A DNA stretch of 64,000 bases from Leptospira biflexa (GTDB lineage: Bacteria > Spirochaetota > Leptospiria > Turneriellales > DYLW01). Below the pieces are notes generated by a model, which worked only from the letters and a program-made list of their open reading frames with translations, was not told where the DNA came from and did no database searches. Shown one piece after another: positions 2-43,480 of this stretch; the first letter of the stretch is position 1; every line of letters starts with the position of its first letter. The translations under genes and the position numbers were made by a program. The stretch is from positions 13,563-77,562 of the forward strand of contig DYLW01000001.1 of assembly GCA_020721865.1 (NCBI GenBank), written 5' to 3'.

Positions 2-1231
2 GAAACAATAACCCAAGATAAGTGGGGTGCCTGGTTTTCCGTTTACATTCCAATAAAAAAAGGATCCAAGACCATTGCCATATTGGGTCTGGATCTGGAT
101 GCAAATTCAGAATATAATCTGTTAAATGAATACCGCTATATTCTGTTTTTTCTGGGTGGGATGATTATTCTTCTGACCAATGGAATATCCTTTCTCTTCA
201 CCCGTAAAATCATAAGGCCACTAAAAAAACTGGAAAAATCCACACACCAGATTGCCTCCGGAAACTATGATCTTGATATACCCGTTCACTCCCAGGACGA
301 AATTGGGCATCTGGCCCGGAGTTTTACCCGGATGGTAGACGTTGTCCGGAAAAATCAAGACGATTTGGAAACCCAGGTACAAAACCGGACCGTTGAGTTG
401 GAAGAATCACTGAATCAGCTCCGGTATCTCAAGCAAAAACAAGATGTGGATTATTTTTTAGCCGGGATGCTCGTGCTACCTTTGAGCAAAGATATGAATA
501 TCAATTCAGCCATCAAAACCGAATGGTTTATTGAGCAGAAGAAAAAGATTTATTACAGAAATCACCAGAGCCAGGCGGGAGGGGATTCCATTATAACCGC
601 TTCCCTCCTATTCCGGGACAGAGGGCATTGTGTCTTTTTTATCAACACAGACGCCATGGGAAAATCCCTGCAGGGAGCCGGGGGTAGCGTGGTCATTGGT
701 TCCATTGTGAATGCGTATCTTACCCCCATTGCTCCGGAAAAAGAAGTGTTAAATCTGGTGCCGGAAAAATGGCTTCAGGAGATATTTATCAATATTCAAC
801 GGGTTTTTGAGTCATTCCAAGGCAATATGTATGTCTCCTGTATCATGGGACTGGTGAATGAAGAAACCGGAAAGATGACATACATTAACGCTGACCATCC
901 TGCCCCCATCCTTTTCCGAGATAAAACCACCGGCATTATGGAACAGAACGTCATCATGAAAAAATTTGGAATGGCGGATCAGGGGAATCCGGGATTGAAT
1001 ATCTTTTATCTGAATCCGGGGGACATTGTCTTCATTGGATCAGATGGAAAGGATGATCTTCTGAAAGATGGCCGAAGGTTGGAAATGGACAATACCGTAT
1101 TTCAGAATTTAATCCGCACACATAATGGGAATCTCAACAATATACGGGAATCCATAAGCAACAACTATGAATTATCCGATGATATTTCTGTATTAAAAAT
1201 ATCTTTCAAAAATGACAGCACATTTTTATAA
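2..1231 (+). CDS. Sensor PP2C/SpoIIE-type Ser/Thr phosphatase with HAMP domain (RsbU-like); 5' end lies outside the window
   Basis: The frame is open from nt 2 up to the TTG at 83 used by the ORF track. The extra residues (..DKWGAWFSVYIPIKKGSKTIAILGLDLD) look like the end of a Cache-type sensor. They are followed by a TM helix (YILFFLGGMIILLTNGISFLF), HAMP (RPLKKLEKSTHQIASGNYDLDIP..DEIGHLARSFTRMV) and SpoIIE/PP2C blocks (GGDSII, NTDAMGKSLQGAGGS, FIGSDGKDD, DDISVLKI). Confidence 0.85.
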   Translation, partial: ETITQDKWGAWFSVYIPIKKGSKTIAILGLDLDANSEYNLLNEYRYILFFLGGMIILLTNGISFLFTRKIIRPLKKLEKSTHQIASGNYDLDIPVHSQDEIGHLARSFTRMVDVVRKNQDDLETQVQNRTVELEESLNQLRYLKQKQDVDYFLAGMLVLPLSKDMNINSAIKTEWFIEQKKKIYYRNHQSQAGGDSIITASLLFRDRGHCVFFINTDAMGKSLQGAGGSVVIGSIVNAYLTPIAPEKEVLNLVPEKWLQEIFINIQRVFESFQGNMYVSCIMGLVNEETGKMTYINADHPAPILFRDKTTGIMEQNVIMKKFGMADQGNPGLNIFYLNPGDIVFIGSDGKDDLLKDGRRLEMDNTVFQNLIRTHNGNLNNIRESISNNYELSDDISVLKISFKNDSTFL

Positions 1232-2385
1232 AGGTACATACTGCCCGTAAAAAGGAACATATTTTTTCCAGGGGTATGATTGCATTCCTGGAATAATGTT
1301 GCGGACAACGCCGGAAAGGAATCCCCAGAATCTTCTGAAAAAAAACGGGGATCCCTCATGGGGAAAAGAAAATACTGAATTCTGGTTTGTTTCCCCAGAA
1401 TAGAATCCAGTATAATGCGATAAATCCTCATGTCTCTTTCCTTCATACTGTTCATGATGATATAAAGAGTATCGATATTTTTATTCCCAGCAAGTCGCAG
1501 AATTTCGTGTGCGAGATTTTCCATGGAAGCCGGGTTATGGGCTGCATCGTAGATAATCAGGGGATCTCTTCTGAGTATTTCCAGCCGCCCCGGAATATCC
1601 GGCGGGATTTCCTCCGGGGAAAATCCAAACAGTTTCAGAAACACCCATCGGGAAAAGCTGTAATTTCTCTGCAGATACGTTTTTTCCTGATCCCAGAGAG
1701 ATTCTGGAAAATAATGCACCGGACTGCCCGCATCCTGGGCTGCTTTGTCTATAACGCCGCGTGCCTCATCCTTTTGCGGAACGGAGAATACCGGAGTCCC
1801 GCTTTTGATGATTCCCGCCTTTTCCCATGCTATTTTCTCCAGTGTATCCCCCAGTATCGTTTCATGATCCATGGCAATCGATGTGAGAACCACTGCGGCA
1901 GGTTGAACAACATTAGTGGAATCCAAGCGCCCCCCTAATCCTGTTTCCAATACCGCCCAACCGGCATTTTTTTCCCGGAAATATTCCAACGCAGAAAGGG
2001 TAAAAAAATCAAAGTAGCTCATCTTGGACAAATCGTAAAACATCCGGAAATATCTGAAAAATTTGTATAATTCTCTTTCTGGAATATTTACTCCATTTAG
2101 CTGTATTCTTTCACATGGATGAATCAAATGGGGGGACGTATACAGACCGCAGGAATGTCCCTCCCGTTGTATCATTCTGTACAGATACGTGGCCACCGAT
2201 CCTTTCCCCAGCGTTCCCGCTATATGGATATAGGAAGTCGCAGAAGGAAAGAGAGTCCTCTCCTTTACCAGGGATTTCAGAGGTTCCGGAGAATAGCCAT
2301 TTTGCAGAGTAAACCTGCGACTTGCTTCATAATTGGAATGGGAAAAAAAATCATGGATAACGGGATAATAAGATTTTTCTTTCAA
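1165..2385 (-). CDS. folC: Folylpolyglutamate synthase / dihydrofolate synthase
   Basis: Mur-ligase/FolC P-loop HIAGTLGKGSV, TSPHLIHPCERIQLNG, and a C-terminal GSMYLY block. The only in-frame start upstream of the P-loop is TTG at 2385, which overlaps the upstream stop (TTGA). Confidence 0.85.
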   Translation of the reverse strand: MKEKSYYPVIHDFFSHSNYEASRRFTLQNGYSPEPLKSLVKERTLFPSATSYIHIAGTLGKGSVATYLYRMIQREGHSCGLYTSPHLIHPCERIQLNGVNIPERELYKFFRYFRMFYDLSKMSYFDFFTLSALEYFREKNAGWAVLETGLGGRLDSTNVVQPAAVVLTSIAMDHETILGDTLEKIAWEKAGIIKSGTPVFSVPQKDEARGVIDKAAQDAGSPVHYFPESLWDQEKTYLQRNYSFSRWVFLKLFGFSPEEIPPDIPGRLEILRRDPLIIYDAAHNPASMENLAHEILRLAGNKNIDTLYIIMNSMKERDMRIYRIILDSILGKQTRIQYFLFPMRDPRFFSEDSGDSFPALSATLFQECNHTPGKNMFLFTGSMYLYKNVLSFLKDIFNTEISSDNS

Positions 2386-4097
2386 TTGTCTTTCATGCTT
2401 TTTTCAAGCTTTTTTAATTCAGCCATCCATTTTTTCAGTTCTTCTGGATTTTTTCTGCTCTCACGTATTTTTTGCAGAATGAACTGAAGCTTTCCCATCT
2501 TTTCCGCATTATCTTTTAATGTTTCATCCTGTTCCGGATTGTACGGATAGATAAAAAACTGATAATGGTTTGTACTGCTGAAAAGACCGCTTTTGGGATC
2601 TCTGGAACGGATATGAAGAAAATACCGCCCCGCTTTGAGATTTGCCGGAATCGTAATTTTCCCTTTTTCATGCTCGATGATGGCCGATGGGTTCTCTTTG
2701 GGTGCAGAACTGATGGACGCATAATAATTCACATTATCCAGATTGTTGATAAAGAATTCCATATTTCCTGATTTAATGGTACGGGGAGAAATTTCGTTTA
2801 ATAGAAAAATATAGGGTTCAGCGGGAGAATACTTCCAGTAAATGGGAATTCGGTACACCCAGCTTCTCTGGTTCCCATCCACCGCTTGGACAATAAAATA
2901 ATACATACCGCCTTTTAGATTATCTTTTTTGAATTCATTTCCGGGAATTTTTTTTATGTCGTCCAGCGGGTCAGCATATTTATTACCCGTCAAAAGATAA
3001 CGATATCCAAAATTCGGGCTGGAGGATTCCCAACGCATGACCAGCTCCGGAGAATTCCCCGTCATACGAATAAGCCAGTCGAATGCGGAAAGATAGGGCT
3101 GGGAAAGATCCCAGGATTCTGTGTACAAAAAATTAATATCAGAAAGCACGTTAAAGAAAAGTCCATCCTTTCTGAGAAGAGGCACAAAATAAAATCCGGT
3201 CATCATCCGCCGGCTCTGGAATTCTATTTTTGGTACCTGAGCGGAAAAATCATCAAAATCAATCCGGAATACAGAGCTTAATTTCCGCGAGGGGATGAAG
3301 ACAATGATTTTTTTTTCATAGCGAACCGGAATAATGTCATCTGCATACAGGAATTCCTTGGAATACATTACCTTCTGTGCCTGCACGTTTTTCCCGGCAA
3401 TGAAAAATTTATATAAATTTCCATAGACATCAAAGGCCATTAAATACATGTTTTTATTCATCTGAATAAACTGGGGTCTCTTCACAAAAAATGGAAGATT
3501 ATACCTCTGGTATTTTCCGTCCCGCCACACGTTCCAGTAAATACTTCCGGCACTCCGGTACAAAAGATGTACTTTTTTTTCTGACCATTGAAGGAAAATC
3601 CGGTCGATGGGAAATTCGCTGTTAAGAATATCCTGGTTCTGGTTCAGCTTCCAGATGGACACAACATGATTGAAATTCCGAATGGAATAGATCAGGGCAA
3701 CGGGATTCCCATCGGAGTCTACCCGCACATCTAAATCACTGATCTCAAATTTCAGAAAATCTTTTTTCTCATATATAATATCCCCGGTAGAATTAAAAAC
3801 AATGAAAACAATCTCCCGCTGGTCATGAAAGGATACCACCACCAAATCCCCATCCGCGAGAGCAAAATGTTTGATAATATCCGGAGGTTTACGGAAACGG
3901 TAAATTTCTTTGGATGTATATTTCTTATTCTTTTCTTTGACGGATAGCAAAACTGTTTTTTTCTTGAGGACAATGGTTTTTTCCAGCCAGATTTTTGTGT
4001 GGGTATCAATCAATTCCACATCCCGCATGGGTTCAAACGCAAAACCAGATTTCCAAACCACCACCAAAAGAATTAATGATATCCAAATTTTTTTCAT
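2382..4097 (-). CDS. Secreted protein of unknown function: repeated beta-blade region, two PGxYY-type beta-sandwich modules and a C-terminal coiled coil
   Basis: ATG at 4097 gives a clean signal peptide (MKKIWISLILLVVVWKSGFA). Blade-like repeats include IVFIVFNSTGDIIY, HVVSIWKLN and VHLLYRSAGSIYWNVWRDG. Sandwich motifs are KGGMYYFIVQAVDGNQRSW and KAGRYFLHIRSRDPKSG. The tail is charged (KNPEELKKWMAELKKLEK). The protein looks paralogous to the upstream 877-aa gene. Confidence 0.6.
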   Translation of the reverse strand: MKKIWISLILLVVVWKSGFAFEPMRDVELIDTHTKIWLEKTIVLKKKTVLLSVKEKNKKYTSKEIYRFRKPPDIIKHFALADGDLVVVSFHDQREIVFIVFNSTGDIIYEKKDFLKFEISDLDVRVDSDGNPVALIYSIRNFNHVVSIWKLNQNQDILNSEFPIDRIFLQWSEKKVHLLYRSAGSIYWNVWRDGKYQRYNLPFFVKRPQFIQMNKNMYLMAFDVYGNLYKFFIAGKNVQAQKVMYSKEFLYADDIIPVRYEKKIIVFIPSRKLSSVFRIDFDDFSAQVPKIEFQSRRMMTGFYFVPLLRKDGLFFNVLSDINFLYTESWDLSQPYLSAFDWLIRMTGNSPELVMRWESSSPNFGYRYLLTGNKYADPLDDIKKIPGNEFKKDNLKGGMYYFIVQAVDGNQRSWVYRIPIYWKYSPAEPYIFLLNEISPRTIKSGNMEFFINNLDNVNYYASISSAPKENPSAIIEHEKGKITIPANLKAGRYFLHIRSRDPKSGLFSSTNHYQFFIYPYNPEQDETLKDNAEKMGKLQFILQKIRESRKNPEELKKWMAELKKLEKSMKDN

Positions 4098-4102
4098 AAG
4101 TA

Positions 4103-6736
4103 TCAAATCTTAAAAAACCTGCTCAAAATGTAAAAAAGTCTCCTCCTCACAAGAAACACAATTCCCAGAAATCCCAATAAGCCACCCCATATAACCAGGT
4201 TGGACGGGAAAGCGGATTTTTTTCCAACAATTAATCGATAGGAAGCGTAGTAACCTGCCTCTGTCAAGGGTTTGTCATTCAGAATCATTCGAACATTTAT
4301 ATAGTATTCTCCCGGCTTCAGGTTATACAGATACTCCTCCTGCCCATGAGAATTCACTTCCAGCCCCGGTAACCTCTGGCGGTCAGAGATTTCCCAGGAA
4401 AACCCATGCATTGCATACTGGTACTCCGCTGGGGCAAAAAACCGGACTTCATAATACCCGTTTCCCGGATTCACCAGAATGCTGGGAAGAGGTTTTACCG
4501 CTGGTGGCTTTTCCAGATGGGGAATTGTGGAATAAATCTCGCCGGATTCCCCGGTATCTTTCTGTATTTCTGCTGGAGGCTCCGGTTCTTCCTGTGGAAT
4601 GACATTGGTTATTTCTTCCGCACGGGAAAAGTAGATATGTTTAACAGAGGCTTTTCCTTTGTCCGCATACTGGACACCCACAGAAGCCACATAAACCTCT
4701 CCTTTAGGAAGGTTCTCAATATTCCGGGAAAACCTTAGGTTCCCCTCGCTGGATGTTGTTGGGACAATAAACTTATCCTGATACGGATCCGATGGATTTT
4801 TTCCAAGAGAAAGAAAAACCCCGGAAATTTTCTTCCCTTCGCCCTGGGACGGAATAGAAAAATCCAACTGGTTGTTTCTCACTTCCCCATCAGTAATGTT
4901 GGAAAAAATATCAAAAACAGAACCGGAGTTTTCCGGATCAATAATCACGGTAAAATTCCCATAGGCGGAACGGTTCCCGGCAATATCCTCTGCCTGAATT
5001 CGGAAATAGTAAGTGCCGGGTTCCACATTATTGAAAATCGCCTGATTTTTTTCTGTGTTTTTTTCCAGTTTGGTGGTAATATATGGCAAAAAAGAATAAT
5101 GATACCGGGTAACCTCAATATCGTCCTTGGATAAAAAGTTGAAAACCACCGTCCTGGCTTTGCTTCCCACTCTTTCTTTATGCGTGGGGGAAGAGATATC
5201 TGGAACTCCCGGAGGACCTGAATCGATAATAAAATTATAATGGGATGTTTCTGATTCATTCCCCGCTTTATCCATATACCGCAGATGCAGATAGTATATT
5301 CCTGGCTCCATGTAATCAATGGACAGCCCGGTCTTTGTCCCCGGCAGGTTATACAAATCCGGATTGGTCCCGGCAGATTTATCCACCAGATAAGCGTAGC
5401 CCTGGACTCCGGACGGATCTTTGGGAGCTTTCCATGAAAATGAAGCAGAATTACGGGAAACCGCTTTTTTTTCCGGATGCGTCCGGGAGGAAATCACCAG
5501 TTTTTCTGCTTCTGTATCCGCACGCTGGCGGTATAAAACGCCACCAGAGAGGTAATATAAATCCACGTTGGCGGAAGAAGATAAAAGGTATGGTTTTTTG
5601 GCATCAAACCGGGATTCCGATATCTGGTGATTCACCCCCACCAGTTCATTCATTGGTCTGTCCAGAAAAATCCCAAAAATCTGGGGTGGATTTTTCCGGT
5701 GATCCGACCAGGCAACAATTCTTCCGGATTTTTTGGAATACGCAATCTGTGGATTGTAACAACTCGCATTGGTGGCAGAAATTTTCCTAACCGGAGAGTT
5801 GAACGATTGATAAAATATCTCCCAGTTTTTTTCTGGATTGGCCTGCCATACCCAGTGGACGGTGTTGCCAAACACGGCGGCACGGGGAGAAAAATTATGA
5901 TAATCACGGGAAGTGATCTTCTGGATATCTGATCTATCGGAACCGGATATTTTAAAATAATGAATATTATCCTTGAAACTGTCCTGTCCCCTACTCTGGT
6001 AAAACACATGCATATCGTTTCCGGAAACACTCACGGACGGGAAAAATGCCCCCCGCCCGATAAAATGAATATCCTTCACGAGCATCTGAAAATCTGTGAA
6101 ACGGCCGTTTTTAAGTTTGGCACGGTAAAAAGTGAAAACATTGGCGGAATTTTCTTTCTGAAAAAACAGATAGATATTTCCAGAATAATCGGTTTCCAAC
6201 TGTGGTAGTACCAGTACCCCATCCAAATCCAGACGCTTTACACCGGATTCTGGATTGGCCAAGGTTTCCATCCCGTTTTCCGTATATTTATACTCAATAA
6301 TGGTTTTCCCGCTGGAAAAATCTGTTTTCTGCCATACAAGGACGGTTTTATTCCCCGCCACGGCAATATCCGCATTCACGGGAAACAACGCGGGCGAGGG
6401 CTTCAGATCCACGGTATGGGCAACCACAGACACAGCTCGTCCATTGCGGAAGGAAAGAATACACAAATCAATCTTTGCGGGAGCATTCGGAGAAAAGGCT
6501 CCCCGTATTTTCTGTGTAACCAGAGCCAGAGAGCCACTTTGTTTGTCGGTGTCCAGTTTATAGTCATGGGCCCCACCATCCATGGCCACCGGTGGATACC
6601 ATCCAGGAACCCCCCAGAGAAGCTGCGGACAAAAAAAGGCCAATAAGAAAGAAATTATCCCAAGAACATGCAAAGATGACAAAAATTTATTATTCATTCC
6701 CAGTGTATACATCGAACTAAAATCCCTTTTTATCAA
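4103..6736 (-). CDS. Large cell-surface protein of unknown function: propeller-like repeats, three or more PGxYY..AGN beta-sandwich modules and a C-terminal TM helix plus RRR
   Basis: The start is uncertain (TTG 6736, ATG 6712 or ATG 6697; the last gives MNNKFLSSLHVLGIISFLLAFF). Blade motifs include TVLVWQKTD, IYLFFQKE, MHVFYQSRG, VHWVWQANPEKNWEIFYQS and RIVAWSDHRKNPPQIFGIFL. Sandwich modules are EPGIYYLHLRYMDKAGNES, EPGTYYFRIQAEDIAGNRS and KPGEYYINVRM. The protein ends NLVIWGGLLGFLGIVFLVRRRLFYILSRFFKI. Confidence 0.65.
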   Translation of the reverse strand: MIKRDFSSMYTLGMNNKFLSSLHVLGIISFLLAFFCPQLLWGVPGWYPPVAMDGGAHDYKLDTDKQSGSLALVTQKIRGAFSPNAPAKIDLCILSFRNGRAVSVVAHTVDLKPSPALFPVNADIAVAGNKTVLVWQKTDFSSGKTIIEYKYTENGMETLANPESGVKRLDLDGVLVLPQLETDYSGNIYLFFQKENSANVFTFYRAKLKNGRFTDFQMLVKDIHFIGRGAFFPSVSVSGNDMHVFYQSRGQDSFKDNIHYFKISGSDRSDIQKITSRDYHNFSPRAAVFGNTVHWVWQANPEKNWEIFYQSFNSPVRKISATNASCYNPQIAYSKKSGRIVAWSDHRKNPPQIFGIFLDRPMNELVGVNHQISESRFDAKKPYLLSSSANVDLYYLSGGVLYRQRADTEAEKLVISSRTHPEKKAVSRNSASFSWKAPKDPSGVQGYAYLVDKSAGTNPDLYNLPGTKTGLSIDYMEPGIYYLHLRYMDKAGNESETSHYNFIIDSGPPGVPDISSPTHKERVGSKARTVVFNFLSKDDIEVTRYHYSFLPYITTKLEKNTEKNQAIFNNVEPGTYYFRIQAEDIAGNRSAYGNFTVIIDPENSGSVFDIFSNITDGEVRNNQLDFSIPSQGEGKKISGVFLSLGKNPSDPYQDKFIVPTTSSEGNLRFSRNIENLPKGEVYVASVGVQYADKGKASVKHIYFSRAEEITNVIPQEEPEPPAEIQKDTGESGEIYSTIPHLEKPPAVKPLPSILVNPGNGYYEVRFFAPAEYQYAMHGFSWEISDRQRLPGLEVNSHGQEEYLYNLKPGEYYINVRMILNDKPLTEAGYYASYRLIVGKKSAFPSNLVIWGGLLGFLGIVFLVRRRLFYILSRFFKI

Positions 6737-6887
6737 TATATTTTTGAAAATCCTCCGGCGAGAAAATATAAAATTATGGACAGATCACGACAGGAAAAAG
6801 CTTTACGGCACATACGGCCTTATTAAAATAACCTTATATTAATCTATTTTCGGGAGAGAAGCCATTCTTTGCCAAAAGGGGACCATC

Positions 6888-8522
6888 TTGAGATTGCGAA
6901 TACCTTTATTTACTCTCACTTTCCTCACCTATTTTCTTAATTCTGCGAATATCCGGGGGGTGGAATTAAAACCCATTGTTTCCACAGGAAAAAACTCTTC
7001 CCAATATGTTTTGCAGACCCGGCATTTCAATGTCCACTTTGATTCCCGGGGAGGAAAAATCCTCCGACTGGAACACCGCGACAGCGTGAATAAACTAAAG
7101 GATTCCATCAATCTGGCGGAGGATCCTTTTGAATTCACCGCCTATTTTAATCCGGAAAACCAGAAGGATATGAGAAACGCCGAGTTTACATTGGAACCAC
7201 GTCCGTCCAAGGATTACCAAGAGCTGTACGCCGGCACGGAATTATCGGATGGGAAAAAAGCCCGGCTCAAAGTGGGTAAGATATTTCGCTTTTATGATGA
7301 ATACCATTACTGGCAGTTTTCGCTGGAGTTCGTCAATACCGGCAGGGAAGACATCCAAATACCGGAGGTATACTTTCTCCCCATACTGGGCATTGGTCCG
7401 GTGGAACAGTCCCCGGATGCGAATTCCCGGACACAACAGTCGTTTTACGCATTTTATTTTGCCAATGGAAAGTTTGAAACCCTGAGAACATCCTCCGGCT
7501 CATCCAGTTTTCTGGGGCTGGGTTGCTCCGGGTCAGACGATAGTTCCAAAACCATCCGGGACAGTGTGGATTTTTTTGGAAAAAGCTCCCGTTTCATGAA
7601 CATGACCATCCAGCCGATGGAGAAGAACAACGGCCTTTATTATTTCCCGAAATCGGCCAATTCTCCGCAACAATTGCATTTATCCCAGAAAGGGTTTTCC
7701 CTTAAGCCCGGGGAAAAAAAGGAATACCATTTCTGGGTTTATTCCGGCCCCAAGGTAAAGGACTATGTGGATCTTTCCACAAAAGATTTCCAGAAGATCC
7801 CGGCCCTGTCCAAAATCCATGATGATCTATACAAAGCGTTTGACTTTGGATTCACCGGCCCCATCCGGGATCTGATTGTGGTAATCACGGAGCTTTTGTA
7901 TAAGCTCATTCCCAACTATGGAGTGGGTATTATTCTTTTTGCCATTTTATTCAAGGCGATTTTCTGGCCACTGAACCAGAAACAGGCAGAATCCATGAAA
8001 AAAATGCAGATCCTCCAGCCCAAGCTGAAAGAAATCAATGAGAAATATAAGGATAATCCTCAGGAAAAACAGAAAAGAACAATGGCTCTGTATAAGGATA
8101 ATAAGGTCAATCCACTGGGCGGCTGTTTGCCCATTCTGATCCAGATTCCCATTTTTATTGCTTTATATACCGCGTATTCAGACTCCTATGAACTCTGGAG
8201 ATCTCCTTTCATCTCCGGATGGATTGATGATCTCTCCCAGCCGGATACCGTGTACCGTTTTCCGGAGGCCATGTTTTTGATTGGGGGATTGTCCTTGAAT
8301 ATTTTGCCCATAGTCATGACTCTTACCCAATTTCTTCAAACAAAATTCACTACCGTTTCCACCGATGAAAGCCAGCAGAAAGTGATGATGTTTATGCCGT
8401 TTATTCTTTTATTCATATTCTGGACAATGCCCTCCGGTGTTGTTCTCTACTGGACAGTCACGAATATTCTTTCCGTGGTCCAGCAGTTGTACACAAACGC
8501 AAAAACCAAAATTGATTCTTAA
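6888..8522 (+). CDS. yidC: Membrane protein insertase YidC
   Basis: N-terminal anchor, then a long periplasmic domain. The conserved insertase core follows (GVGIILFAILFKAIFWPLNQKQAESMKKMQILQPKLKEINEKYKDNPQEKQKRTMALYKDNKVNPLGGCLPILIQIPIFIALY). TTG start. Confidence 0.9.
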   Translation: MRLRIPLFTLTFLTYFLNSANIRGVELKPIVSTGKNSSQYVLQTRHFNVHFDSRGGKILRLEHRDSVNKLKDSINLAEDPFEFTAYFNPENQKDMRNAEFTLEPRPSKDYQELYAGTELSDGKKARLKVGKIFRFYDEYHYWQFSLEFVNTGREDIQIPEVYFLPILGIGPVEQSPDANSRTQQSFYAFYFANGKFETLRTSSGSSSFLGLGCSGSDDSSKTIRDSVDFFGKSSRFMNMTIQPMEKNNGLYYFPKSANSPQQLHLSQKGFSLKPGEKKEYHFWVYSGPKVKDYVDLSTKDFQKIPALSKIHDDLYKAFDFGFTGPIRDLIVVITELLYKLIPNYGVGIILFAILFKAIFWPLNQKQAESMKKMQILQPKLKEINEKYKDNPQEKQKRTMALYKDNKVNPLGGCLPILIQIPIFIALYTAYSDSYELWRSPFISGWIDDLSQPDTVYRFPEAMFLIGGLSLNILPIVMTLTQFLQTKFTTVSTDESQQKVMMFMPFILLFIFWTMPSGVVLYWTVTNILSVVQQLYTNAKTKIDS

Positions 8523-12071: not shown

Positions 12072-13589
12072 ATGCAGGAAAGCGAACTGACGCAAATACG
12101 GCTCCATAAGCTGGAGCAGATCCGGGAAACCGGGGTGAACCCCTACCCCAATTATTTTCATAAAGAAAAAAACATCCGGGAAATTCTGGACATGTTCCCG
12201 GAAAACCCAAATCACGAGAACCCACCGGAACCGGTGGAGGTGAGCACAGCGGGCAGAATTACAGCCATGCGTGCCATGGGGAAGGCTTCCTTCCTCCAGA
12301 TTCGGGATTTAACCGGCACCATCCAATTGTATGGGAATGATAAAACTCTGGAAAGCAATGAATACGCGATTTTTCAACTGACCGATCTGGGTGACATTGT
12401 GGGAATATCCGGAGAGATCTTTGTCACCAAAACCGGAGAACCCAGTATCCGTCTGAAAAAGTTTTCTCTTCTGGCAAAAAATATTGAACCCCTGCCGGTG
12501 GTAAAGGAAAAGGACGGGATGGTCTATGACGCCTTTTCCGATGTGGAATCCCGCTACCGCAGGCGGTATGTGGATTTTCTGGTAAATCCGGAAGTCCGGC
12601 ATGATTTCATTACCCGGAGCCGCATTATCCGGGAAATCCGGAATTATCTGGACCATGCCGGGTTTATGGAAGTGGAAACCCCCATGATGCAGTCCATTGC
12701 CTCCGGTGCCGCCGCGAAACCCTTTGTGACCCACCATAATACTCTGGATATGGATCTGTATCTGCGGATTGCTCCGGAGCTTTATCTTAAAAGAATGATT
12801 GTGGGTGGATTTGAAAAAATATTTGAACTGAACCGCAACTTCCGCAACGAAGGCATCAGTACAAAACACAACCCGGAATTCACCATGATGGAAATTTACC
12901 AGGCGTATGCAGACTACCGGGACATGATGCGTTTAACCGAGGAACTCTTCCTGCATGTGGCCATGAAAATCTACGGCACTTCCAAAATTCCCTACCAGGG
13001 AACCATCATCGACCTGACACCACCTTGGGAACGGGTGGAATATCTGGAAATTATCAAAGAAAAATCCGGGATAGATTTTGCCAAAATTCTGGCATCCCCG
13101 GAGCCCATGGGAAAGGCATCCCAGGAAGCGGAGAAAGTGGGTATTTCTGCCAAGGGATGTTCCACTGTATGGGAAATTGTGGATGAGGTTTTCTCCCAAA
13201 AGGTGGAGCCAGAATTAATCCAACCGATTTTCATCACCCATTTTCCTCTGGAAATTTCTCCACTTTCCAAGGAAGATCCCGAACGTCCCGGTTTTGTGGA
13301 GCGTTTTGAGCCCTATATTACCGGACGGGAAATGGGAAACGCCTTTTCTGAGCTGAATGATCCTCTGGAGCAGGAAAAACGCTTTTCCATCCAGTTGCAG
13401 ATGAAAGAAGATGGCCAGCAGGAGACAATGGAAATGGATGAAGATTTTATTTCTGCTCTGAAGGTGGGGATGCCTCCCACCGGTGGGCTGGGCATTGGCA
13501 TTGACCGGATGGTAATGCTGTTCACCAACGCCGCCACCATCAAAGATGTGATTGCATTTCCTCTGCTCAGAAAAAAGGATCCATCATGA
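12072..13589 (+). CDS. lysS: Lysine--tRNA ligase, class II
   Basis: OB-fold N-domain followed by class II motifs (RRRYVDFL, FMEVETPMMQ, FELNRNFRNEGIS, GGLGIGIDRMVMLFT). Confidence 0.92.
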   Translation: MQESELTQIRLHKLEQIRETGVNPYPNYFHKEKNIREILDMFPENPNHENPPEPVEVSTAGRITAMRAMGKASFLQIRDLTGTIQLYGNDKTLESNEYAIFQLTDLGDIVGISGEIFVTKTGEPSIRLKKFSLLAKNIEPLPVVKEKDGMVYDAFSDVESRYRRRYVDFLVNPEVRHDFITRSRIIREIRNYLDHAGFMEVETPMMQSIASGAAAKPFVTHHNTLDMDLYLRIAPELYLKRMIVGGFEKIFELNRNFRNEGISTKHNPEFTMMEIYQAYADYRDMMRLTEELFLHVAMKIYGTSKIPYQGTIIDLTPPWERVEYLEIIKEKSGIDFAKILASPEPMGKASQEAEKVGISAKGCSTVWEIVDEVFSQKVEPELIQPIFITHFPLEISPLSKEDPERPGFVERFEPYITGREMGNAFSELNDPLEQEKRFSIQLQMKEDGQQETMEMDEDFISALKVGMPPTGGLGIGIDRMVMLFTNAATIKDVIAFPLLRKKDPS

Positions 13590-14656
13590 AGCCATCGGTA
13601 ATACCATTCAAGCCATCGCGGAAAAAAATTGACATACTGGACCAGACCCGGCTACCGGGGAAAACCCACTGGGTGGAGTGCAAAACCGCAAGAGATGTAT
13701 CCCGCTCCATCACAAAAATGCATGTACGGGGAGCACCCGCCATTGGCGTTACAGCGGCCTATGGATTTTATCTGGAAATTTATTCATTACTGAAGAATGG
13801 GAAAAAGATTACCAAATCCACCGGAAAGGATACAAAACATTTCCTGGATTCATCCCGCCCCACCGCCGTCAATCTGAGCTGGGCAACGTCCCGCATGCTT
13901 CATGAAATGGAGAACTTTTTTTCGGAAAATTCCATACTGCCGGAAAACATCACAGATAACAATAAAATCCAGAATCAATTTTTAACCAAAATATGGAAAA
14001 CAGCGGAGGAAATCCATCTGGATGACGCCGCTCGATGTCTGGCCATGGGGAGCAACACGGCGGATCTTATTATCAAAACAATCCCCAAAGAAAAACTGAA
14101 TATATTGACCCACTGCAACACCGGATCTCTGGCCACAGGTGGCATTGGTACAGCTCTGGGAGCCATCCGGGTTTTGCATAATAGAAATAAAATCAATCGG
14201 GTTTACGCAGATGAAACCCGTCCGTTTAACCAGGGTGCCCGTCTCACCGCCTATGAGTTAGTGAAGGAAAAAATCCCGGCCACGCTGGTGGTGGACTCCA
14301 TGGCGGCGTATCTTATGCAGAAGGGAATGATTGACGCCGTTATTGTGGGATCAGACCGGATCACCCGCCGCGGAGATGTTGCCAATAAAATCGGGACATA
14401 TATGCTCTCTGTTGCGGCCAAAGCCCATAACATTCCTTTTTATGTGGTGGCTCCGCTTTCCACCTATGATGATTCCATTGAATTCGGGAAGGAAATCCCC
14501 ATTGAGAAAAGAGATGAGAAAGAGGTAACCCATATTGGAGGCAAACAAATTGCGGCGGAAATTCCTGTTTTGAACTACAGCTTTGATGTCACCCCTTATG
14601 AAAATATTACGTCCATAGTGACAGAGAAAGGGATTTTTGAACCATCGGGTTCATGA
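13586..14656 (+). CDS. mtnA: S-methyl-5-thioribose-1-phosphate isomerase (eIF-2B alpha/beta/delta-like family)
   Basis: LDQTRLPG, MHVRGAPAIGVTAAYG, TRPFNQGARLTAYEL and VGSDRITRRGDVANKIGTY. ATGA start/stop overlap with lysS. Confidence 0.85.
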   Translation: MKPSVIPFKPSRKKIDILDQTRLPGKTHWVECKTARDVSRSITKMHVRGAPAIGVTAAYGFYLEIYSLLKNGKKITKSTGKDTKHFLDSSRPTAVNLSWATSRMLHEMENFFSENSILPENITDNNKIQNQFLTKIWKTAEEIHLDDAARCLAMGSNTADLIIKTIPKEKLNILTHCNTGSLATGGIGTALGAIRVLHNRNKINRVYADETRPFNQGARLTAYELVKEKIPATLVVDSMAAYLMQKGMIDAVIVGSDRITRRGDVANKIGTYMLSVAAKAHNIPFYVVAPLSTYDDSIEFGKEIPIEKRDEKEVTHIGGKQIAAEIPVLNYSFDVTPYENITSIVTEKGIFEPSGS

Positions 14657-33580: not shown

Positions 33581-35488
33581 CTACAGCCGGAAGAAGTCCA
33601 CCGCTTTTTTCAGTTCCTTTGCTTTCTCAACCAAAGTCATGGCGGTGGCGGAAAGCTCTTCTGATGCGGAGGCAGTAGTCCGGGTGGTGGTGTTCAATTG
33701 TTCCATCCCGATATTGACCTCACTGACACCATGAAGCTGCTCCCGGGAAGACGTTTTAATGGCCTCCACATTTACCGCCGTATCCCCGGAGGCAGGAATA
33801 ATGGCCATGATATCATTCCCAGTGGTTTCCGCCACGGACACACTGGAATGGGCCAGCTCGCTGATTTCTTTGGAGGCATGGGAAGCCTCATCGGCCAGTT
33901 TATTGATCTCATTGGCCACCACGGCAAACCCCTTCCCCATTTCTCCGGAACGGGCAGCTTCTATGGTAGCGTTCAGAGCCAGAAGATTGGTCTGCTCGGC
34001 TATGCTTTTAATAATGCCGATTTTTTCTGAAATTTTCAGAAGAGCATCCAGAGATCGTTTCACGGATTCCCCTCCGGCTTTTGCCAGATTGGAAGACCGT
34101 GCAGCCAGGGCATTGGTTTCGTTTGCTTTATCCAGATTGGATGAAATATTTTCCTCAATGTTAGATAAAGTGGCAGAAATCTCCTCCACACTGGCCGCCT
34201 GTTCGGAAGCACTCTGGGAAAGTCTCTGGCTGGTGGCCTCAATTTCCGATGAGAAGGACAACACCTCTTCCGTATTTTTTATTATGGAAGAAATAGTGTC
34301 CTTCAATATTTCCGCCGTTTTCAAGATTTTATTCACAATTTTTCCGATTTCATCATCATTGAATTGGACATCCAGAGTAAAAGACAAATCTCCGGAAGAT
34401 ATTGAATCGGCCACTTCCACGGCATGAGCCAGAGGCCGAAAGATCATTTTACGAAAAACAAACCGGATAATCAGAAAAACAAAAAGGACGGAGATTATTA
34501 ACAAAACCGGAATCAATACCAGAAGCAGATTCATTTCCCGCTGCCCATCAGAAAAATCCCGGAAAAAAATCCCATAACCAATGATCTTTTTTTCATAATC
34601 CTCTATTGGGAAAATGGAAATAAAATAATTTTCCACAATAGTATGGTTTACCCCGGAATTAAATAAATTGGCCTCTAATTTTTCCGCAATATTCAGAAAT
34701 AATTCCCTATTCGTGGAGGACACAAAAACCATATTTCCCAAAACTGGATTTTTTTCCGGATTCCGCAGTTGATCCGCTACGGAAAGAAATTCCTTTCTCA
34801 TAACCACACTCAGAGTTTCTTTTTCTGAATACTGGATTTTTTGGAAAATTCCATCAAAAGAACCCAACACTTCCACCGTGCCGATTATCTTATTCCCATC
34901 CACGATGGGGCATATCCCACGGATGGCAAATCCATCATTGCCTATTTCAATGCCCTTGATATCCCTCATCTTTCCGGAAGTAATATCCAGGATGGTCTGG
35001 CGAAATCCACGCAAATCATCGGAAATATCCATCCATTTCCCATTTTTTCTGATCTGCTTATCCCGCCACAGACGCACCAGGCTTCGGGCCGGGGGCAGAT
35101 GAAAATGAAGATTCAGCTTCTCCCCTTCCGAAGCCTCAAACTCATCCATATTTTTTTTCAGTGACTTCCGGAGCATCTCCCGGGCAGCCTGGGATTGGGG
35201 AGAGTTTTCATCATTAATATTTCCGGAATACGCCATTTTATACGCCGGAAGAACCGATCTTTCTGTGGAATAAAACAATGCCTGAAGATAACTGGAGTGT
35301 GCAGTCTGCTGGATAAAATGACGGATTTCTTCAATTTTGAGATTATTCAAAGCCTTTGCTTCATTGTCCAATCGTTTACCAATATGAATGAGAAGGAAAA
35401 AAGCGAACAAGGTAAACATGACCAAACTCAGGACAATCACAAAAACAAGGATTTTAATTTCAATGGATTTATTAAATAGTTTTTTCAT
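33581..35488 (-). CDS. Methyl-accepting chemotaxis protein with a Cache-type periplasmic sensor and HAMP
   Basis: ATG 35488 gives [19 protein letters not shown].. (TM1). Sensor block [32 protein letters not shown], then TM2, HAMP and the MCP hairpin ([32 protein letters not shown]). The ORF-track start 35644 runs into the divergent STAS gene. Confidence 0.9.
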
Positions 35489-35611
35489 TCTTGGCGATTT
35501 CCGTTCGACGGAATATAATGGCCATTCAATTGATAAAGCAAATTTTAATAAAATCAGGAGAATAGTGAAAATAAATTGACACCTTGTGCGGAAAAAATAA
35601 TCGTATGAACG

Positions 35612-35938
35612 ATGGAGATAAAAACAAGGGATCTGGGACAGCATAAGGTTCTCATTGTAACGGGAGACATTGATTTATATAATGTGGGTCAACTGAAAAA
35701 AGCCATTTTTAACCTGCTGGATGAAGAAGATATTGAGTCTCTGGTTGTGGACATGAGTGGTATTAATTACATGGACTCCTCCGGGGTGGGGGCTCTGGTG
35801 GCTGGACAGAAAAAAGTAAAATCCCAAGGCGGAAAATTCGCCCTGCTGAGTATCAGAGAAGACGTACTCAATATTCTGAAACTGGCCACTCTGGACCAGT
35901 TTTTTACCATATACGAAAACGAAACGGATATTAAATAA
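35612..35938 (+). CDS. STAS-domain anti-sigma-factor antagonist (SpoIIAA/RsbV-like)
   Basis: About 108 aa. [19 protein letters not shown] carries the conserved phosphorylatable Ser in the DSSG context. Confidence 0.85.
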
Positions 35939-35941
35939 CCA

Positions 35942-37012
35942 TTGACCGGTCATAAAATCACAGTTCAAAACATAGCCCTTGTTTTTGGCGGGGTTTCCGG
36001 AGAGCATGAGGTTTCTCTGGTGTCTGCCAGGTTTCTGGCAGAAAATATTATAAAGAATCATTATCAAGTCTATTATCTGTACATTGATAAATCCGGTGTC
36101 TGGCACCATGTAGCCACAATACCGGAAAGCCCGGAGGCAGCAGAAAAAAATCCGGTCTCTCTGAACCTGGCCGATGGGAGCATTACGGACGGAAAGAAGT
36201 TCACCTTTACACCGGACTTTTTTTTCCCGGCCATCCATGGAACCAACGGCGAAGACGGAACCCTGCAAGGACTTCTGGAAATTCTGGATAAACCATACGC
36301 AGGAAATGGGGTCTTTGCGTCCGCTGCCTGCATGGACAAGGGACACTTTCATCGGTTAATGGTGAATCAAGAAATTCCCCAAGTGGCTTATGCCATTCTG
36401 GACAAAAATAATCAGAATAAATATATCCTTCCCGATTTTCCCTTCCCCTGGTTTGTAAAGCCAGCCAATATGGGTAGCTCCGTGGGAGTTCATAAAATAA
36501 AAAACCCGGAAGAAGCTCTCCCCAAAATTCTGGATGCCTTCCAGTATGATGACCATTTGGTCATTGAGAGGGGGTATCGCGTCCGGGAGATTGAGTTTTC
36601 CATATTGGGAAATTATCCGGAGTACCGTGTTTCCATTGCCGGTGAAATTATCCCATCCCATGAGTTTTACTCCTACGAAGCCAAATACAAAGATCCAGGC
36701 GGGGCAAAGCTGGTTGTCCCCGCTCCCCTGTCCCCGGAAATCCTTCGGGCGATGCAGGACACAGCCAAGGACGCATTCCGGGCTGTCCGGGGCGATGGTT
36801 TTGCACGGGTGGATTTTTTTATCGATGCGGACACAGGGGATTATTATTTGAATGAAATTAATACTATCCCCGGTTTTACTCCCATCAGTATGTTCCCGCA
36901 ACTGTGGAACCATTCCGGATTGAAACCGGAGGATCTGGTGAACGACATCATTCTGCTGGGAATTCAAAAATGGGAACAGAAAAAAAACCTGAAAACAGAT
37001 TTTCAGAATTAA
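35942..37012 (+). CDS. ddl: D-alanine--D-alanine ligase
   Basis: FGGVSGEHEVSLVSA, HGTNGEDGTLQGLLE, ATP-grasp blocks (FVKPANMGSSVGV) and the C-terminal EINTIPGFT. TTG start 3 nt after the STAS stop. Confidence 0.92.
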   Translation: MTGHKITVQNIALVFGGVSGEHEVSLVSARFLAENIIKNHYQVYYLYIDKSGVWHHVATIPESPEAAEKNPVSLNLADGSITDGKKFTFTPDFFFPAIHGTNGEDGTLQGLLEILDKPYAGNGVFASAACMDKGHFHRLMVNQEIPQVAYAILDKNNQNKYILPDFPFPWFVKPANMGSSVGVHKIKNPEEALPKILDAFQYDDHLVIERGYRVREIEFSILGNYPEYRVSIAGEIIPSHEFYSYEAKYKDPGGAKLVVPAPLSPEILRAMQDTAKDAFRAVRGDGFARVDFFIDADTGDYYLNEINTIPGFTPISMFPQLWNHSGLKPEDLVNDIILLGIQKWEQKKNLKTDFQN

Positions 37013-37353: not shown

Positions 37354-37374
37354 ACCATAATACAGGATGGAATT

Positions 37375-40828: not shown

Positions 40829-40833
40829 AGCGG

Positions 40834-41817: not shown

Positions 41818-41826
41818 TCGTCCTGA

Positions 41827-42747: not shown

Positions 42748-42815
42748 ACTCCCCCCTTTTAGAAATAAATCTTTGATATAATTGAAAACCCGGAATAAGC
42801 GTCAATTTCTATTTA

Positions 42816-43337: not shown

Positions 43338-43480
43338 TGTTGTTTATCCGAATTGAGCCTTAAAAACTCAAGCACTTTTCTGGTTTTGCATGCACAACGG
43401 GCAAAACACAACTCCCGTCTTTGGCTTATTTAATCTGCATTTTCCCGGCCATAACTAACCCACGAAGAGACTGCCAACCG

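What the first reader, a model, noticed from the sequence alone, without database searches (positions are those of the whole stretch)
2382..6736. Two paralogous giant surface proteins translationally coupled to folC
Seen: the consecutive minus-strand genes (877 aa and about 571 aa) share an architecture. Each has a signal peptide, then a long run of short aromatic-rich beta blades. In the larger these include VLVWQKTD, MHVFYQSRG, VHWVWQANPEKNWEIFYQS and RIVAWSDHRKNPPQIFGIFL; in the smaller, HVVSIWKLN and VHLLYRSAGSIYWNVWRDG. Beta-sandwich modules with a PGxYY..D.AGN.S motif follow (EPGIYYLHLRYMDKAGNES, EPGTYYFRIQAEDIAGNRS, KGGMYYFIVQAVDGNQRS). The junctions are tight: stop at 4103 and next ATG at 4097, and the second stop overlaps the only possible folC start as TTGA (2382-2385). 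The larger protein ends with a TM helix plus an Arg cluster (GGLLGFLGIVFLVRRR). That is the general shape of C-terminal sorting signals (PEP-CTERM-like classes), but without a PEP motif and with a 12-residue tail. Obligate coupling of a folate enzyme to surface proteins is odd, and the proteins have no function I can assign.
Basis: partly seen in the sequence, partly recalled or inferred. Interest (0 to 1): 0.55.

Follow-up and report, generated by a model that had tools for sequence, protein, structure and literature searches.

The report
Conserved spirochaete envelope-protein pair before folC
Two uncharacterised secreted proteins, each an all-beta head followed by Ig-like modules, sit in a tightly packed operon with the folate enzyme FolC; this gene order is conserved across an uncultured Leptospira-related lineage, but the parts are all known kinds and nothing links the proteins to folate chemistry.

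Summary
The sequence features are real. Three minus-strand genes are packed head to tail:
- A: 869 aa from ATG 6712.
- B: 571 aa from ATG 4097, 5 nt after A's stop.
- folC: its TTG at 2385 overlaps B's TGA as TTGA.

A is predicted to have a signal peptide, a 6-7-bladed propeller distantly related to the BNR/sialidase superfamily, two Y_Y_Y/FN3-type Ig modules, three more beta-sandwiches, one transmembrane helix and a short basic tail. B has a signal peptide, an all-beta N-terminal region, the same tandem Ig pair and a C-terminal helical hairpin.

A and B are demonstrably homologous only in the tandem Ig region (hhalign E 7e-14). The N-terminal regions alone are not (E 0.098).

The helix-RRR tail occurs only in A orthologues, with no signature motif before it. 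It reads as a plain inner-membrane anchor, so the proteins are more likely periplasmic than surface-exposed.

The useful new fact is synteny. The order MBL hydrolase, A, B, folC recurs in most of about 18 Leptospirales/Turneriellaceae genomes, although FolC is only 30-39% identical between them.

Overlapping junctions are ordinary in this window. Verdict: an uncharacterised family built from known domains, of modest interest.

The parts
6713..6887 (.). Intergenic region between gene A and the divergent yidC. It presumably holds the operon promoter.
   Evidence: ORF map. A weak sigma-70-like match lies at 6875-6846, but the count of such sites is not above the shuffled expectation. The promoter role is inferred.
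4103..6712 (-). Gene A, 869 aa. The ORF stays open upstream to TTG 6736.
   Evidence: P0001 is 100% identical and 869 aa. An AAGGGA Shine-Dalgarno-like site lies 10 nt before ATG 6712.
6614..6712 (-). A: N-terminal signal peptide, about aa 1-33.
   Evidence: AF2 predicts a hydrophobic helix at aa 8-27. Small-residue cleavage-type sites just before the invariant G-W are aligned across the family. Cleavage is inferred.
5498..6613 (-). A: all-beta propeller of 6-7 blades with a recurring hydrophobic-[WYF]-Q blade motif. It is a divergent member of the BNR/sialidase superfamily.
   Evidence: AF2 pLDDT is 85-94 across this region. Foldseek matches M. viridifaciens sialidase, integrin alpha, SorCS2 and a YVTN propeller. 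The propeller profile finds 117 proteins at E<=1e-30, and 9 of 10 sampled hit Pfam BNR_2. Blade motifs are listed.
4937..5485 (-). A: tandem Ig-like modules (FN3 / Y_Y_Y / Big_13 type) with the PG-x-YY...D-x-AGN-x-S motif.
   Evidence: Pfam Y_Y_Y E 1.2e-8 and Big_13 E 6.5e-7. PDB profile hits to KIAA0319L PKD and chitinase A1 FN3 domains. Homologous to B's tandem Ig region.
4613..4915 (-). A: two further beta-sandwich domains.
   Evidence: AF2 secondary structure with pLDDT 63-83.
4517..4612 (-). A: Pro/Glu-rich disordered linker.
   Evidence: pLDDT below 50 at aa 701-732. This stretch varies in length and sequence across the family.
4223..4483 (-). A: membrane-proximal beta-sandwich carrying a third PG-x-YY motif (KPGEYYINVR).
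4106..4201 (-). A: transmembrane helix, RRR cluster and a conserved short cytoplasmic tail (LFYILSRFFKI).
   Evidence: AF2 helices at aa 838-854 and 856-868. The tail pattern, basic-basic-basic-[IL]-x-[FY]-[YF]-x-[SG]-[RK]-[FWY], is conserved in the family. It is unique to A orthologues.
4095..4105 (-). A/B junction: TGA at 4105-4103, a 5-nt spacer, then ATG at 4097-4095.
   Evidence: Orthologous junctions are ATGA overlaps (L002, L004) or TAAATG (L010).
2382..4097 (-). Gene B, 571 aa.
4038..4097 (-). B: signal peptide MKKIWISLILLVVVWKSGFA, with no lipobox Cys.
   Evidence: Read directly from the sequence. Cleavage is inferred.
3093..4037 (-). B: all-beta N-terminal region with blade-like four-strand repeats. 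No family could be assigned.
   Evidence: The AF2 model is weak (mean pLDDT 54; 60-83 over the first ~130 aa). No Pfam or NCBIfam hit. Not significantly similar to A's propeller.
2550..3092 (-). B: tandem Ig-like modules homologous to those of A.
   Evidence: hhalign 98.1%, E 7.4e-14. Y_Y_Y hits in 4 of 7 B-family members, best E 6.8e-6.
2391..2537 (-). B: C-terminal helical hairpin, charged and coiled-coil-like.
   Evidence: AF2 helices at aa 521-546 and 551-569 with pLDDT 73-90. Conserved across the B family.
2382..2385 (-). B/folC junction: TTGA, where the folC TTG start overlaps B's TGA stop.
   Evidence: The same TTGA occurs in L008, ATGA in L001, and gaps of 6 and 28 nt in L010 and L009.
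1165..2385 (-). folC (folylpolyglutamate / dihydrofolate synthase family), 406 aa.
   Evidence: TIGR01499 E 2.1e-77, 261 bits against a cut-off of 162.65. PDB FolC/FPGS hits at E 3e-37.

Best explanation
Genes A and B encode an uncharacterised pair of envelope proteins specific to the Leptospirales.

A is a type I inner-membrane protein. After a cleaved signal peptide, a BNR-superfamily beta-propeller 'head' sits on a stalk of five Ig-like/beta-sandwich domains with a flexible Pro/Glu hinge. One C-terminal transmembrane helix and a short, conserved basic-aromatic cytoplasmic tail hold it in the membrane. B is a soluble periplasmic relative with an all-beta head, the same tandem Ig pair and a C-terminal helical hairpin.

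I infer that the two act together in the periplasm as a non-enzymatic binding or scaffolding complex, with a glycan or envelope ligand held by the propeller and B joined to A through the shared Ig region or the hairpin. I also infer that they are made in matched amounts, because they are always adjacent with overlapping or near-overlapping junctions.

folC, and in most lineages an upstream cytoplasmic MBL-fold hydrolase, belong to the same ancient, tightly packed operon. The TTGA overlap most likely gives termination-reinitiation coupling of folC to B. That is an expression arrangement, not evidence of a shared biochemical pathway.

Shown here: gene structure, domain composition, family distribution and synteny. 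Inferred: localisation, A-B interaction, lack of enzymatic activity and translational coupling.
For: - **Architecture of A.** The AF2 model has pLDDT 80.5 with the domain order given above. Foldseek matches propeller-plus-Ig ectodomains: integrin alpha, SorCS2, sialidase with Ig/CBM, a YVTN+PKD S-layer protein and BT4673. Pfam Y_Y_Y and Big_13 pass their thresholds.
- **BNR relationship.** The propeller profile recovers thousands of relatives. Nine of 10 sampled match BNR_2, five of them above the gathering score. One Asp-box is kept in 16 of 21 A orthologues.
- **A-B relationship.** The tandem Ig regions are homologous. A and B are adjacent in every locus but one, usually with ATGA overlaps or gaps of 0-5 nt.
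- **Anchor.** The transmembrane helix plus basic tail is conserved in all A orthologues and found in no other ORF examined. No sortase-type neighbour was seen.
- **Operon.** MBL-A-B-folC, or a sub-part of it, occurs in about 18 species-level genomes including a Leptospiraceae MAG, while FolC identity is only 30-39%.
- **No internal signals.** Promoter-like and terminator-like sites do not exceed the shuffled expectation. No canonical alternative folC start exists.
- **Diderm host.** The window carries a Kdo transferase and an Omp85-family gene.
Against: - No experiment exists for any member. All homologues come from uncultured MAGs and are unnamed, 'hypothetical', or auto-named 'exo-alpha-sialidase'.
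- The B model is poor (pLDDT 54), so its head fold is not established.
- An A-B interaction was not tested; no multimer prediction was available.
- In L001/L014, A is on the opposite strand from B-folC, so A and B need not be co-translated.
- A's propeller keeps invariant polar residues (R, D, H, Q and Y positions), which could form a catalytic or binding site.
- Synteny held at 30-39% FolC identity could reflect a functional tie that I am discounting.
Confidence: 0.55

Rival explanations
1. A and B are surface-exposed proteins, such as adhesins. The helix-RRR tail of A is a C-terminal sorting signal, processed by a dedicated sortase-like enzyme as PEP-CTERM signals are by exosortase.
For: - The tail has the general shape of such signals: a hydrophobic helix followed by an Arg cluster.
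- The Ig modules resemble those of the Leptospira surface protein OmpL47, though below threshold (31.2 bits against 40).
Against: - No conserved signature motif precedes the helix.
- The tail runs 11 or more residues past the basic cluster and has its own conserved motif.
- It is found only in A orthologues among 778 ORFs of the related loci, and once in the 64-kb window.
- No exosortase, rhombosortase or sortase gene appears in any neighbourhood.
- Only about 0.3 Mb of these genomes was examined, so a distant partner cannot be excluded.
Confidence: 0.08
2. A is an active glycoside hydrolase of the sialidase (GH33-like) type, or another propeller hydrolase. It is tethered in the periplasm, and B is an inactive accessory paralogue.
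For: - The propeller belongs to the BNR/sialidase superfamily.
- Foldseek matches M. viridifaciens sialidase at E 1e-10.
- A more distant relative, P0106, is auto-annotated exo-alpha-sialidase.
- Several invariant Arg, Asp, Tyr and His residues lie in the propeller.
Against: - The window protein gives no BNR or BNR_2 hit at E<=0.1.
- The propeller profile matches no solved sialidase or glycosidase by sequence, even at E<=10.
- There is no FRIP-type motif and no invariant Glu among the invariant columns.
- The window protein has lost even the single Asp-box.
- Most BNR_2 proteins are not enzymes; this last point rests on general knowledge of the family.
Confidence: 0.1
3. MBL-A-B-FolC is one functional module. 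The FolC-like Mur-ligase-family enzyme and the MBL hydrolase would make or process a glutamylated or envelope-bound molecule that the A/B complex handles. Alternatively, A/B would serve folate or pterin acquisition.
For: - The four-gene order is kept across lineages whose FolC is only 30-39% identical.
- Stop/start overlaps recur at B/folC.
- FolC belongs to the Mur-ligase/PgsB superfamily, with weak PgsB and MurE hits.
Against: - The enzyme scores well above the folC family cut-off in every lineage tested (261-278 bits against 162.65), so ordinary FolC function is the default.
- One clade keeps MBL-A-B but has no folC after B, and the window lineage has A-B-folC without MBL. The parts are therefore separable.
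- MBL and FolC have no signal peptides.
Confidence: 0.1
4. A/B form a periplasmic ligand sensor, analogous to the propeller plus Y_Y_Y sensor domain of Bacteroides hybrid two-component systems. The signal would pass through the membrane helix to separate signalling proteins, for example membrane HAMP-SpoIIE phosphatases.
For: - The order propeller, Y_Y_Y, transmembrane helix matches the BT4663/BT4673 sensors. Foldseek hits 3ott_B, and a profile hit to 3v9f_A has E 0.03.
- A HAMP-SpoIIE gene lies next to the operon in the window, and SpoIIE genes lie near it in L002 and L004.
Against: - A has only about 14 cytoplasmic residues and no signalling domain.
- SpoIIE neighbours are absent in L001, L009, L010, L011 and L028.
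- Such genes are very numerous in Leptospirales (general knowledge), so the proximity may be chance.
Confidence: 0.08

Closest known systems
BNR/Asp-box beta-propeller proteins (Pfam BNR_2, sialidase clan), including non-catalytic members
   Same: A has an N-terminal all-beta propeller. Family relatives at E<=1e-30 hit BNR_2, one Asp-box is retained in most orthologues, and Foldseek matches bacterial sialidase.
   Different: The window protein itself does not reach any BNR profile and has lost the Asp-box. There is no GH33 catalytic signature. The blades carry their own hydrophobic-[WYF]-Q motif, and seven such repeats can be counted rather than the six blades typical of sialidases.
Periplasmic sensor domains of Bacteroides hybrid two-component systems (BT4663/BT4673: propellers + Y_Y_Y + TM)
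   Same: The order propeller, Y_Y_Y-type Ig module, single transmembrane helix. The Y_Y_Y profile is passed.
   Different: There is no cytoplasmic kinase, receiver or AraC part. The propeller is of a different repeat family. There are extra sandwich domains and a separately encoded soluble paralogue.
Integrin alpha subunits (architectural analogy only)
   Same: A propeller head, a stalk of Ig-like sandwiches, one transmembrane helix and a short conserved basic-aromatic cytoplasmic tail. These are the best whole-chain TM-scores in Foldseek (about 0.3).
   Different: There is no sequence relationship. The low TM-scores reflect only a shared domain order. The host is bacterial and the setting periplasmic.
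Leptospira OmpL47 (multi-beta-barrel-domain surface protein)
   Same: The PG-x-YY...D-x-AGN-x-S module resembles the OmpL47-type domain.
   Different: The domain model is below its cut-off (31.2 bits against 40). The full-length equivalog scores 13.8 bits against 250. OmpL47 has no propeller and no C-terminal transmembrane anchor of this kind.
PEP-CTERM / other C-terminal sorting signals
   Same: A hydrophobic helix followed by an Arg cluster near the C-terminus.
   Different: There is no signature motif, the tail continues beyond the basic cluster, it is unique to one protein family, and no cognate processing enzyme was seen.
Overlapping stop/start (ATGA, TTGA) operon junctions
   Same: The B/folC TTGA and the near-abutting A/B junction are the standard form of translationally coupled genes.
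   Different: Nothing differs. The only notable point is how long the B-folC adjacency has been kept.

Membership tests
BNR/sialidase-superfamily beta-propeller (Pfam BNR_2) | Significant match of the protein to the BNR_2 or BNR profile | tested here: not met
   The window protein gives no BNR hit at E<=0.1. Only 3 of 12 family members hit, at best E 0.02.
BNR/sialidase-superfamily beta-propeller (Pfam BNR_2) | Homology to bona fide BNR_2 proteins through intermediates | tested here: met
   The propeller profile finds 117 proteins at E<=1e-30. Nine of 10 sampled hit BNR_2, five of them above the 31.4-bit gathering score.
BNR/sialidase-superfamily beta-propeller (Pfam BNR_2) | Asp-box motif S-x-D-x-G-x-T-W in the blades | tested here: inconclusive
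   One relaxed Asp-box is kept in 16 of 21 orthologues. It is degenerate in the window protein (ISGSDRSD).
BNR/sialidase-superfamily beta-propeller (Pfam BNR_2) | Propeller fold | tested here: met
   AF2 pLDDT 85-94 over aa 40-400, all beta. Foldseek matches sialidase, integrin alpha and YVTN propellers. The model coordinates could not be inspected, so the blade count is inferred from strand and motif periodicity.
GH33 exo-alpha-sialidase (enzyme) | Catalytic set: FRIP motif and Arg triad, Tyr/Glu nucleophile pair, Asp acid/base | tested here: not met
   There is no FRIP motif and no invariant Glu among the invariant propeller columns. No sequence match to any solved sialidase at E<=10. The spatial arrangement of the invariant R, D and Y residues was not testable.
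Y_Y_Y / Big_13 Ig-like module | Profile match above the gathering score | tested here: met
   A: Y_Y_Y 35.2 bits against 26.6, and Big_13 30.2 against 27. The window's B protein has no hit, but 4 of 7 B-family members hit Y_Y_Y, best E 6.8e-6. B's Ig pair is homologous to A's.
PEP-CTERM-like C-terminal sorting signals | Conserved signature motif immediately before the transmembrane helix | tested here: not met
   The 12-sequence alignment shows no conserved motif in the 15 columns before the helix.
PEP-CTERM-like C-terminal sorting signals | The same tail shared by several unrelated proteins of the genome | tested here: not met
   Only A carries it in the 64-kb window. Only A orthologues carry it among 778 ORFs of 27 related loci plus the first 14 kb of the window. 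Whole genomes were not available.
PEP-CTERM-like C-terminal sorting signals | Cognate exosortase, archaeosortase or rhombosortase gene | tested here: inconclusive
   None appears among the Pfam-labelled neighbours in 10 neighbourhoods. The rest of the genomes were not searched.
FolC (TIGR01499) | Score above the curated cut-off, a P-loop, and a canonical N-terminal length | tested here: met
   261.2 bits against 162.65. GTLGKGS lies at aa 57-63. The alignment to 1o5z and 1w78 begins at equivalent residues.
Bacteroides HTCS periplasmic sensor | Cytoplasmic histidine kinase, receiver and DNA-binding domains after the transmembrane helix | tested here: not met
   Only about 14 residues follow the helix.
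OmpL47 (NF047441 / NF047446) | Score above the curated cut-offs | tested here: not met
   Equivalog 13.8 bits against 250, and domain 31.2 against 40.
Translationally coupled operon | Downstream start overlapping or abutting the upstream stop, with no alternative start | tested here: met
Translationally coupled operon | Downstream translation depends on upstream translation, and the genes share one transcript | not testable with these tools
   This needs RNA-seq or RT-PCR and reporter fusions.

The most novel reading that the evidence does not exclude
The conserved MBL-A-B-FolC cluster is a single functional system. A FolC-family ligase and an MBL hydrolase in the cytoplasm would be mechanistically tied to a trans-periplasmic propeller/Ig complex, for example through A's conserved cytoplasmic tail. 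That would link one-carbon or glutamyl-ligase chemistry to an envelope structure in Leptospirales.
Probability: 0.07. Interest if true: 0.6.

Novelty: new member of a known kind. Interest (0 to 1): 0.25.

Why it matters
The result defines an uncharacterised protein pair specific to the Leptospirales, and a four-gene cluster (MBL hydrolase, A, B, folC) that has stayed together across deep divergence.

The practical value is modest:
- It gives annotators a domain-level description for proteins now labelled 'hypothetical' or, misleadingly, 'exo-alpha-sialidase'.
- It corrects the idea of a new sorting signal.
- It flags a candidate periplasmic complex to test in spirochaete envelope biology.

It does not by itself open a long-standing question.

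Tried and rejected
- A third word-indexed protein search with the B alignment returned only the four close B homologues. It added nothing and used the last search of that kind.
The four-sequence run gave pLDDT 54, too poor to search by fold, so B's head fold stays unassigned.
- The whole-chain Foldseek search of A returns mostly generic propeller-plus-FN3/Ig ectodomains with TM-scores of 0.1-0.3. It is useful for architecture only, and the model could not be cropped or its coordinates inspected.
- The propeller profile against PDB sequences gave only spurious titin FN3 motif hits.
- The promoter/terminator scan of 900-7100 shows nothing above the shuffled expectation.
- A literature search for Leptospira + BNR + beta-propeller found nothing. 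The OmpL47 papers concern a different protein.
- I considered a lipoprotein reading of A's 'LLAFFC' in the window protein and rejected it, because the Cys is not conserved in the family.
- The upstream MBL partner was searched for in the window by tblastn and is absent.

Full report
**What is in the sequence**

On the minus strand there are three consecutive ORFs: 4103..6736 (A), 2382..4106 (B) and 1165..2385.

- **Gene A.** A is 877 aa from the first TTG. The database copy of the identical protein (P0001) starts at ATG 6712 and is 869 aa. That ATG has an AAGGGA site 10 nt upstream.
- **Gene B.** B most plausibly starts at ATG 4097 (MKKIW..., 571 aa, identical to P0015). That is 5 nt after A's TGA at 4105-4103.
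- **B/folC overlap.** B's TGA (2384-2382) overlaps a TTG at 2385-2383.
- **folC start.** That TTG is the only ATG/GTG/TTG between the upstream in-frame stop at 2406 and codon 64, which already lies past the P-loop GTLGKGS. With it, the N-terminus aligns residue for residue with solved FolC/FPGS structures.
- **folC identity.** The third gene is a FolC-family member by NCBI's curated criterion (TIGR01499, 261 bits against 162.65).

The physical observation is therefore correct.

The tight junctions are not special. The same window has other 4-nt overlaps, at 13586-13589 and 14653-14656, and many gaps of 0-10 nt. Promoter-like and terminator-like matches inside the operon do not exceed the shuffled expectation.

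**Origin**

The identical locus sits on a 262-kb contig of MAG GCA_975320645.1 and in a bioreactor metagenome. Relatives are MAGs labelled Spirochaetia, Turneriellaceae, Turneriella, Leptospirales, Leptospiria and Leptospiraceae. The window also carries yidC-jag-mnmE, a Kdo transferase, an Omp85-family protein and SecA. The host is therefore a diderm, LPS-type spirochaete.

**Protein A**

Pfam gives Y_Y_Y (E 1.2e-8) and Big_13 above threshold at aa 544-600, plus weak FN3/PKD-type hits. NCBIfam gives a sub-threshold OmpL47-type domain.

An AlphaFold2 model from a 12-sequence alignment has mean pLDDT 80.5. It predicts, in order:
- an N-terminal hydrophobic helix (aa 8-27);
- about 26 beta strands between aa 42 and 400, at pLDDT 85-94;
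- two Ig/FN3-like sandwiches (about aa 415-592);
- two more sandwiches (about aa 600-700);
- a disordered Pro/Glu-rich linker (aa 701-732);
- a last sandwich (aa 744-830);
- a helix at aa 838-854, followed by a second short helix to the C-terminus.

Foldseek against the PDB returns proteins with a propeller followed by Ig/FN3 domains. These include integrin alpha-V/alpha-IIb (best TM-scores, about 0.3), the SorCS2 VPS10 ectodomain, Micromonospora sialidase (E 1e-10), an archaeal YVTN-propeller+PKD S-layer fragment and the Bacteroides BT4673 sensor. This supports the architecture, not a specific family.

To place the propeller, I searched a propeller-only profile (A4) against 1.84 billion representatives. 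It found 8565 proteins at E<=1e-3 and 117 at E<=1e-30. Many of these show several matched stretches, which is repeat behaviour. Of ten sampled hits, nine match Pfam BNR_2, five above the gathering score, and several carry canonical BNR/Asp-box repeats.

Within the A family, one relaxed Asp-box is retained in 16 of 21 orthologues. In the window protein it has decayed to ISGSDRSD.

Three things argue against an active sialidase:
- the window protein reaches no BNR profile directly;
- it matches no solved glycosidase by sequence, even at E<=10;
- the invariant columns include no FRIP motif and no invariant Glu.

A blade motif, hydrophobic-[WYF]-Q, recurs seven times at 46-62-residue spacing.

**Protein B and the paralogy claim**

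B has no family hit of its own. Its orthologues were recognised next to A in distant genomes and align over their full length. Four of seven reach Y_Y_Y.

A whole-length profile-profile comparison of the A and B families gives 96.5%, E 8e-10. When I split the proteins, only the tandem Ig region is significant (98.1%, E 7.4e-14). The N-terminal regions compared alone give E 0.098.

The B model is weak (pLDDT 54), although it does show blade-like four-strand repeats and a confident C-terminal helical hairpin.

'Shared architecture' is therefore fair. 'Paralogous' is demonstrated only for the Ig pair.

**The C-terminal tail**

The transmembrane helix, basic cluster and following motif (consensus roughly R-[RK]-[RK]-[IL]-x-[FY]-[YF]-x-[SG]-[RK]-[FWY]) are conserved in all A orthologues, but nothing conserved precedes the helix.

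A pattern scan finds such a tail in one ORF of the 64-kb window. Among 778 ORFs of 27 related loci plus the first 14 kb of the window, it occurs only in A orthologues. The other pattern matches in that scan are unrelated, most of them a recurring membrane protein.

No exosortase, rhombosortase or sortase family appears in any of the annotated neighbourhoods.

In a diderm cell, a signal peptide plus a C-terminal transmembrane helix with a positive inside tail places the ectodomain in the periplasm, tethered to the inner membrane. This placement is an inference. B, with an SPase-I-type signal and no lipobox Cys, would be a soluble periplasmic protein. Surface exposure is unsupported.

**Synteny, the main new result**

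I called ORFs in 27 fetched loci and searched them with profiles of A and B and with the FolC and MBL sequences. One further locus was checked from its gene table.

- **Predominant order.** It is a cytoplasmic MBL-fold hydrolase, then A, B and folC. The hydrolase is 318 aa, has no signal peptide and is distantly RNase-Z-like.
- **Where it occurs.** This order is seen in L009/L013, L010, L016, L019-L025 and L028. In L022 an ORF-call gap of about 0.75 kb separates B and folC. L026 has A-B-folC.
- **Inverted case.** L001/L014 has B-folC, with an ATGA overlap, inverted next to MBL-A.
- **Window lineage.** WIN, L008 and L012 have A-B-folC without MBL.
- **Clade without folC.** L002/3, L004/15, L011, L017 and L018 have MBL-A-B but no folC after B.
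- **Junctions.** They are ATGA or TTGA overlaps, or gaps of 0-28 nt, with one 73-nt A/B gap in L009.
- **Divergence.** Between the window and the other lineages, FolC is 30-39% identical, A 26-34% and B 25-35%. MBL, measured against the L009 copy because the window has none, is 55-79% identical across loci.

The B-folC adjacency is therefore old and mostly retained, but not obligatory. A more distant A-like protein in other Spirochaetota (P0106) stands alone in a different context.

**Interpretation**

The best-supported reading is that A and B are a lineage-specific periplasmic pair. A is a membrane-tethered propeller head on an Ig-domain stalk. B is a soluble relative sharing the Ig pair and ending in a coiled-coil-like hairpin. 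They probably act together as a binding or scaffold complex.

The flanking cytoplasmic enzymes, MBL and FolC, share an ancient compact operon with the pair. The TTGA overlap, together with the lack of any alternative start or evident Shine-Dalgarno site, makes termination-reinitiation coupling of folC to B likely. That speaks to expression, not biochemistry.

I rate four rivals at about 0.1 or less each, for the reasons given in their entries:
- surface adhesins carrying a sorting signal;
- an active propeller hydrolase;
- a truly integrated MBL-A-B-FolC pathway;
- a sensor co-receptor.

None is excluded by experiment, because no member of either family has been studied.

**Verdict**

The proteins form an uncharacterised family built from known domain kinds. 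The C-terminal 'sorting signal' idea fails its tests. The folC coupling is an ordinary operon feature whose long conservation is the only mildly surprising point. Interest is about 0.25.

Noticed in passing
window 1165-1231: The 3' ends of folC (minus strand, ends at 1165) and the convergent HAMP+SpoIIE phosphatase gene (plus strand, ends at 1231) overlap by 67 nt. The same arrangement is seen in the 82%-identical relative L008.
   Followed up: partly
window 50416-53370 (-) and 53371-55065 (-): A 984-aa ORF combines Peptidase_MA_2, PD40 repeats and an Omp85-family barrel, an unusual fusion. A 564-aa ORF with no Pfam hit abuts it with a 0-nt gap.
   Followed up: no
L027 (RFJE01000402.1) and L012 (DYOA01000007.1): An MBL-A locus lies on a contig binned as 'Candidatus Hydrogenedentota'. 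The 82%-identical A-B-folC locus is labelled 'Leptospira biflexa' MAG. These are probably binning or label errors, or in the first case a transfer.
   Followed up: no
related loci L001-L028, gene immediately upstream of A: A highly conserved cytoplasmic MBL-fold hydrolase (318 aa, N-terminus xxFWGVRGS, 55-79% identical across lineages, distantly RNase-Z-like) immediately precedes A. In several gene calls its 3' end overlaps A's called start. It is absent from the window, where yidC lies upstream of A instead.
   Followed up: partly
window 5498-6613, A residues ~125-160: Blade 2 of the propeller (VLVWQ-x-T...GGT-x-I-x-Y) mimics the FN3 B-C strand motif. It draws spurious titin hits in sequence searches of the PDB.
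   Followed up: yes
L004 13038-14168 and L011 12446-13562: In the clade that lacks folC after B, the downstream genes in these two loci are a DksA/TraR-type zinc-finger protein and a roughly 240-aa protein with no NCBIfam match. In L004 they follow a 207-aa gene on the opposite strand.
   Followed up: no
window 33581-46331: This stretch holds several chemotaxis and signalling genes: two dCache_3 MCPs (one with a C-terminal CZB zinc-binding domain) and a Cache-HAMP adenylate/guanylate cyclase.
   Followed up: no
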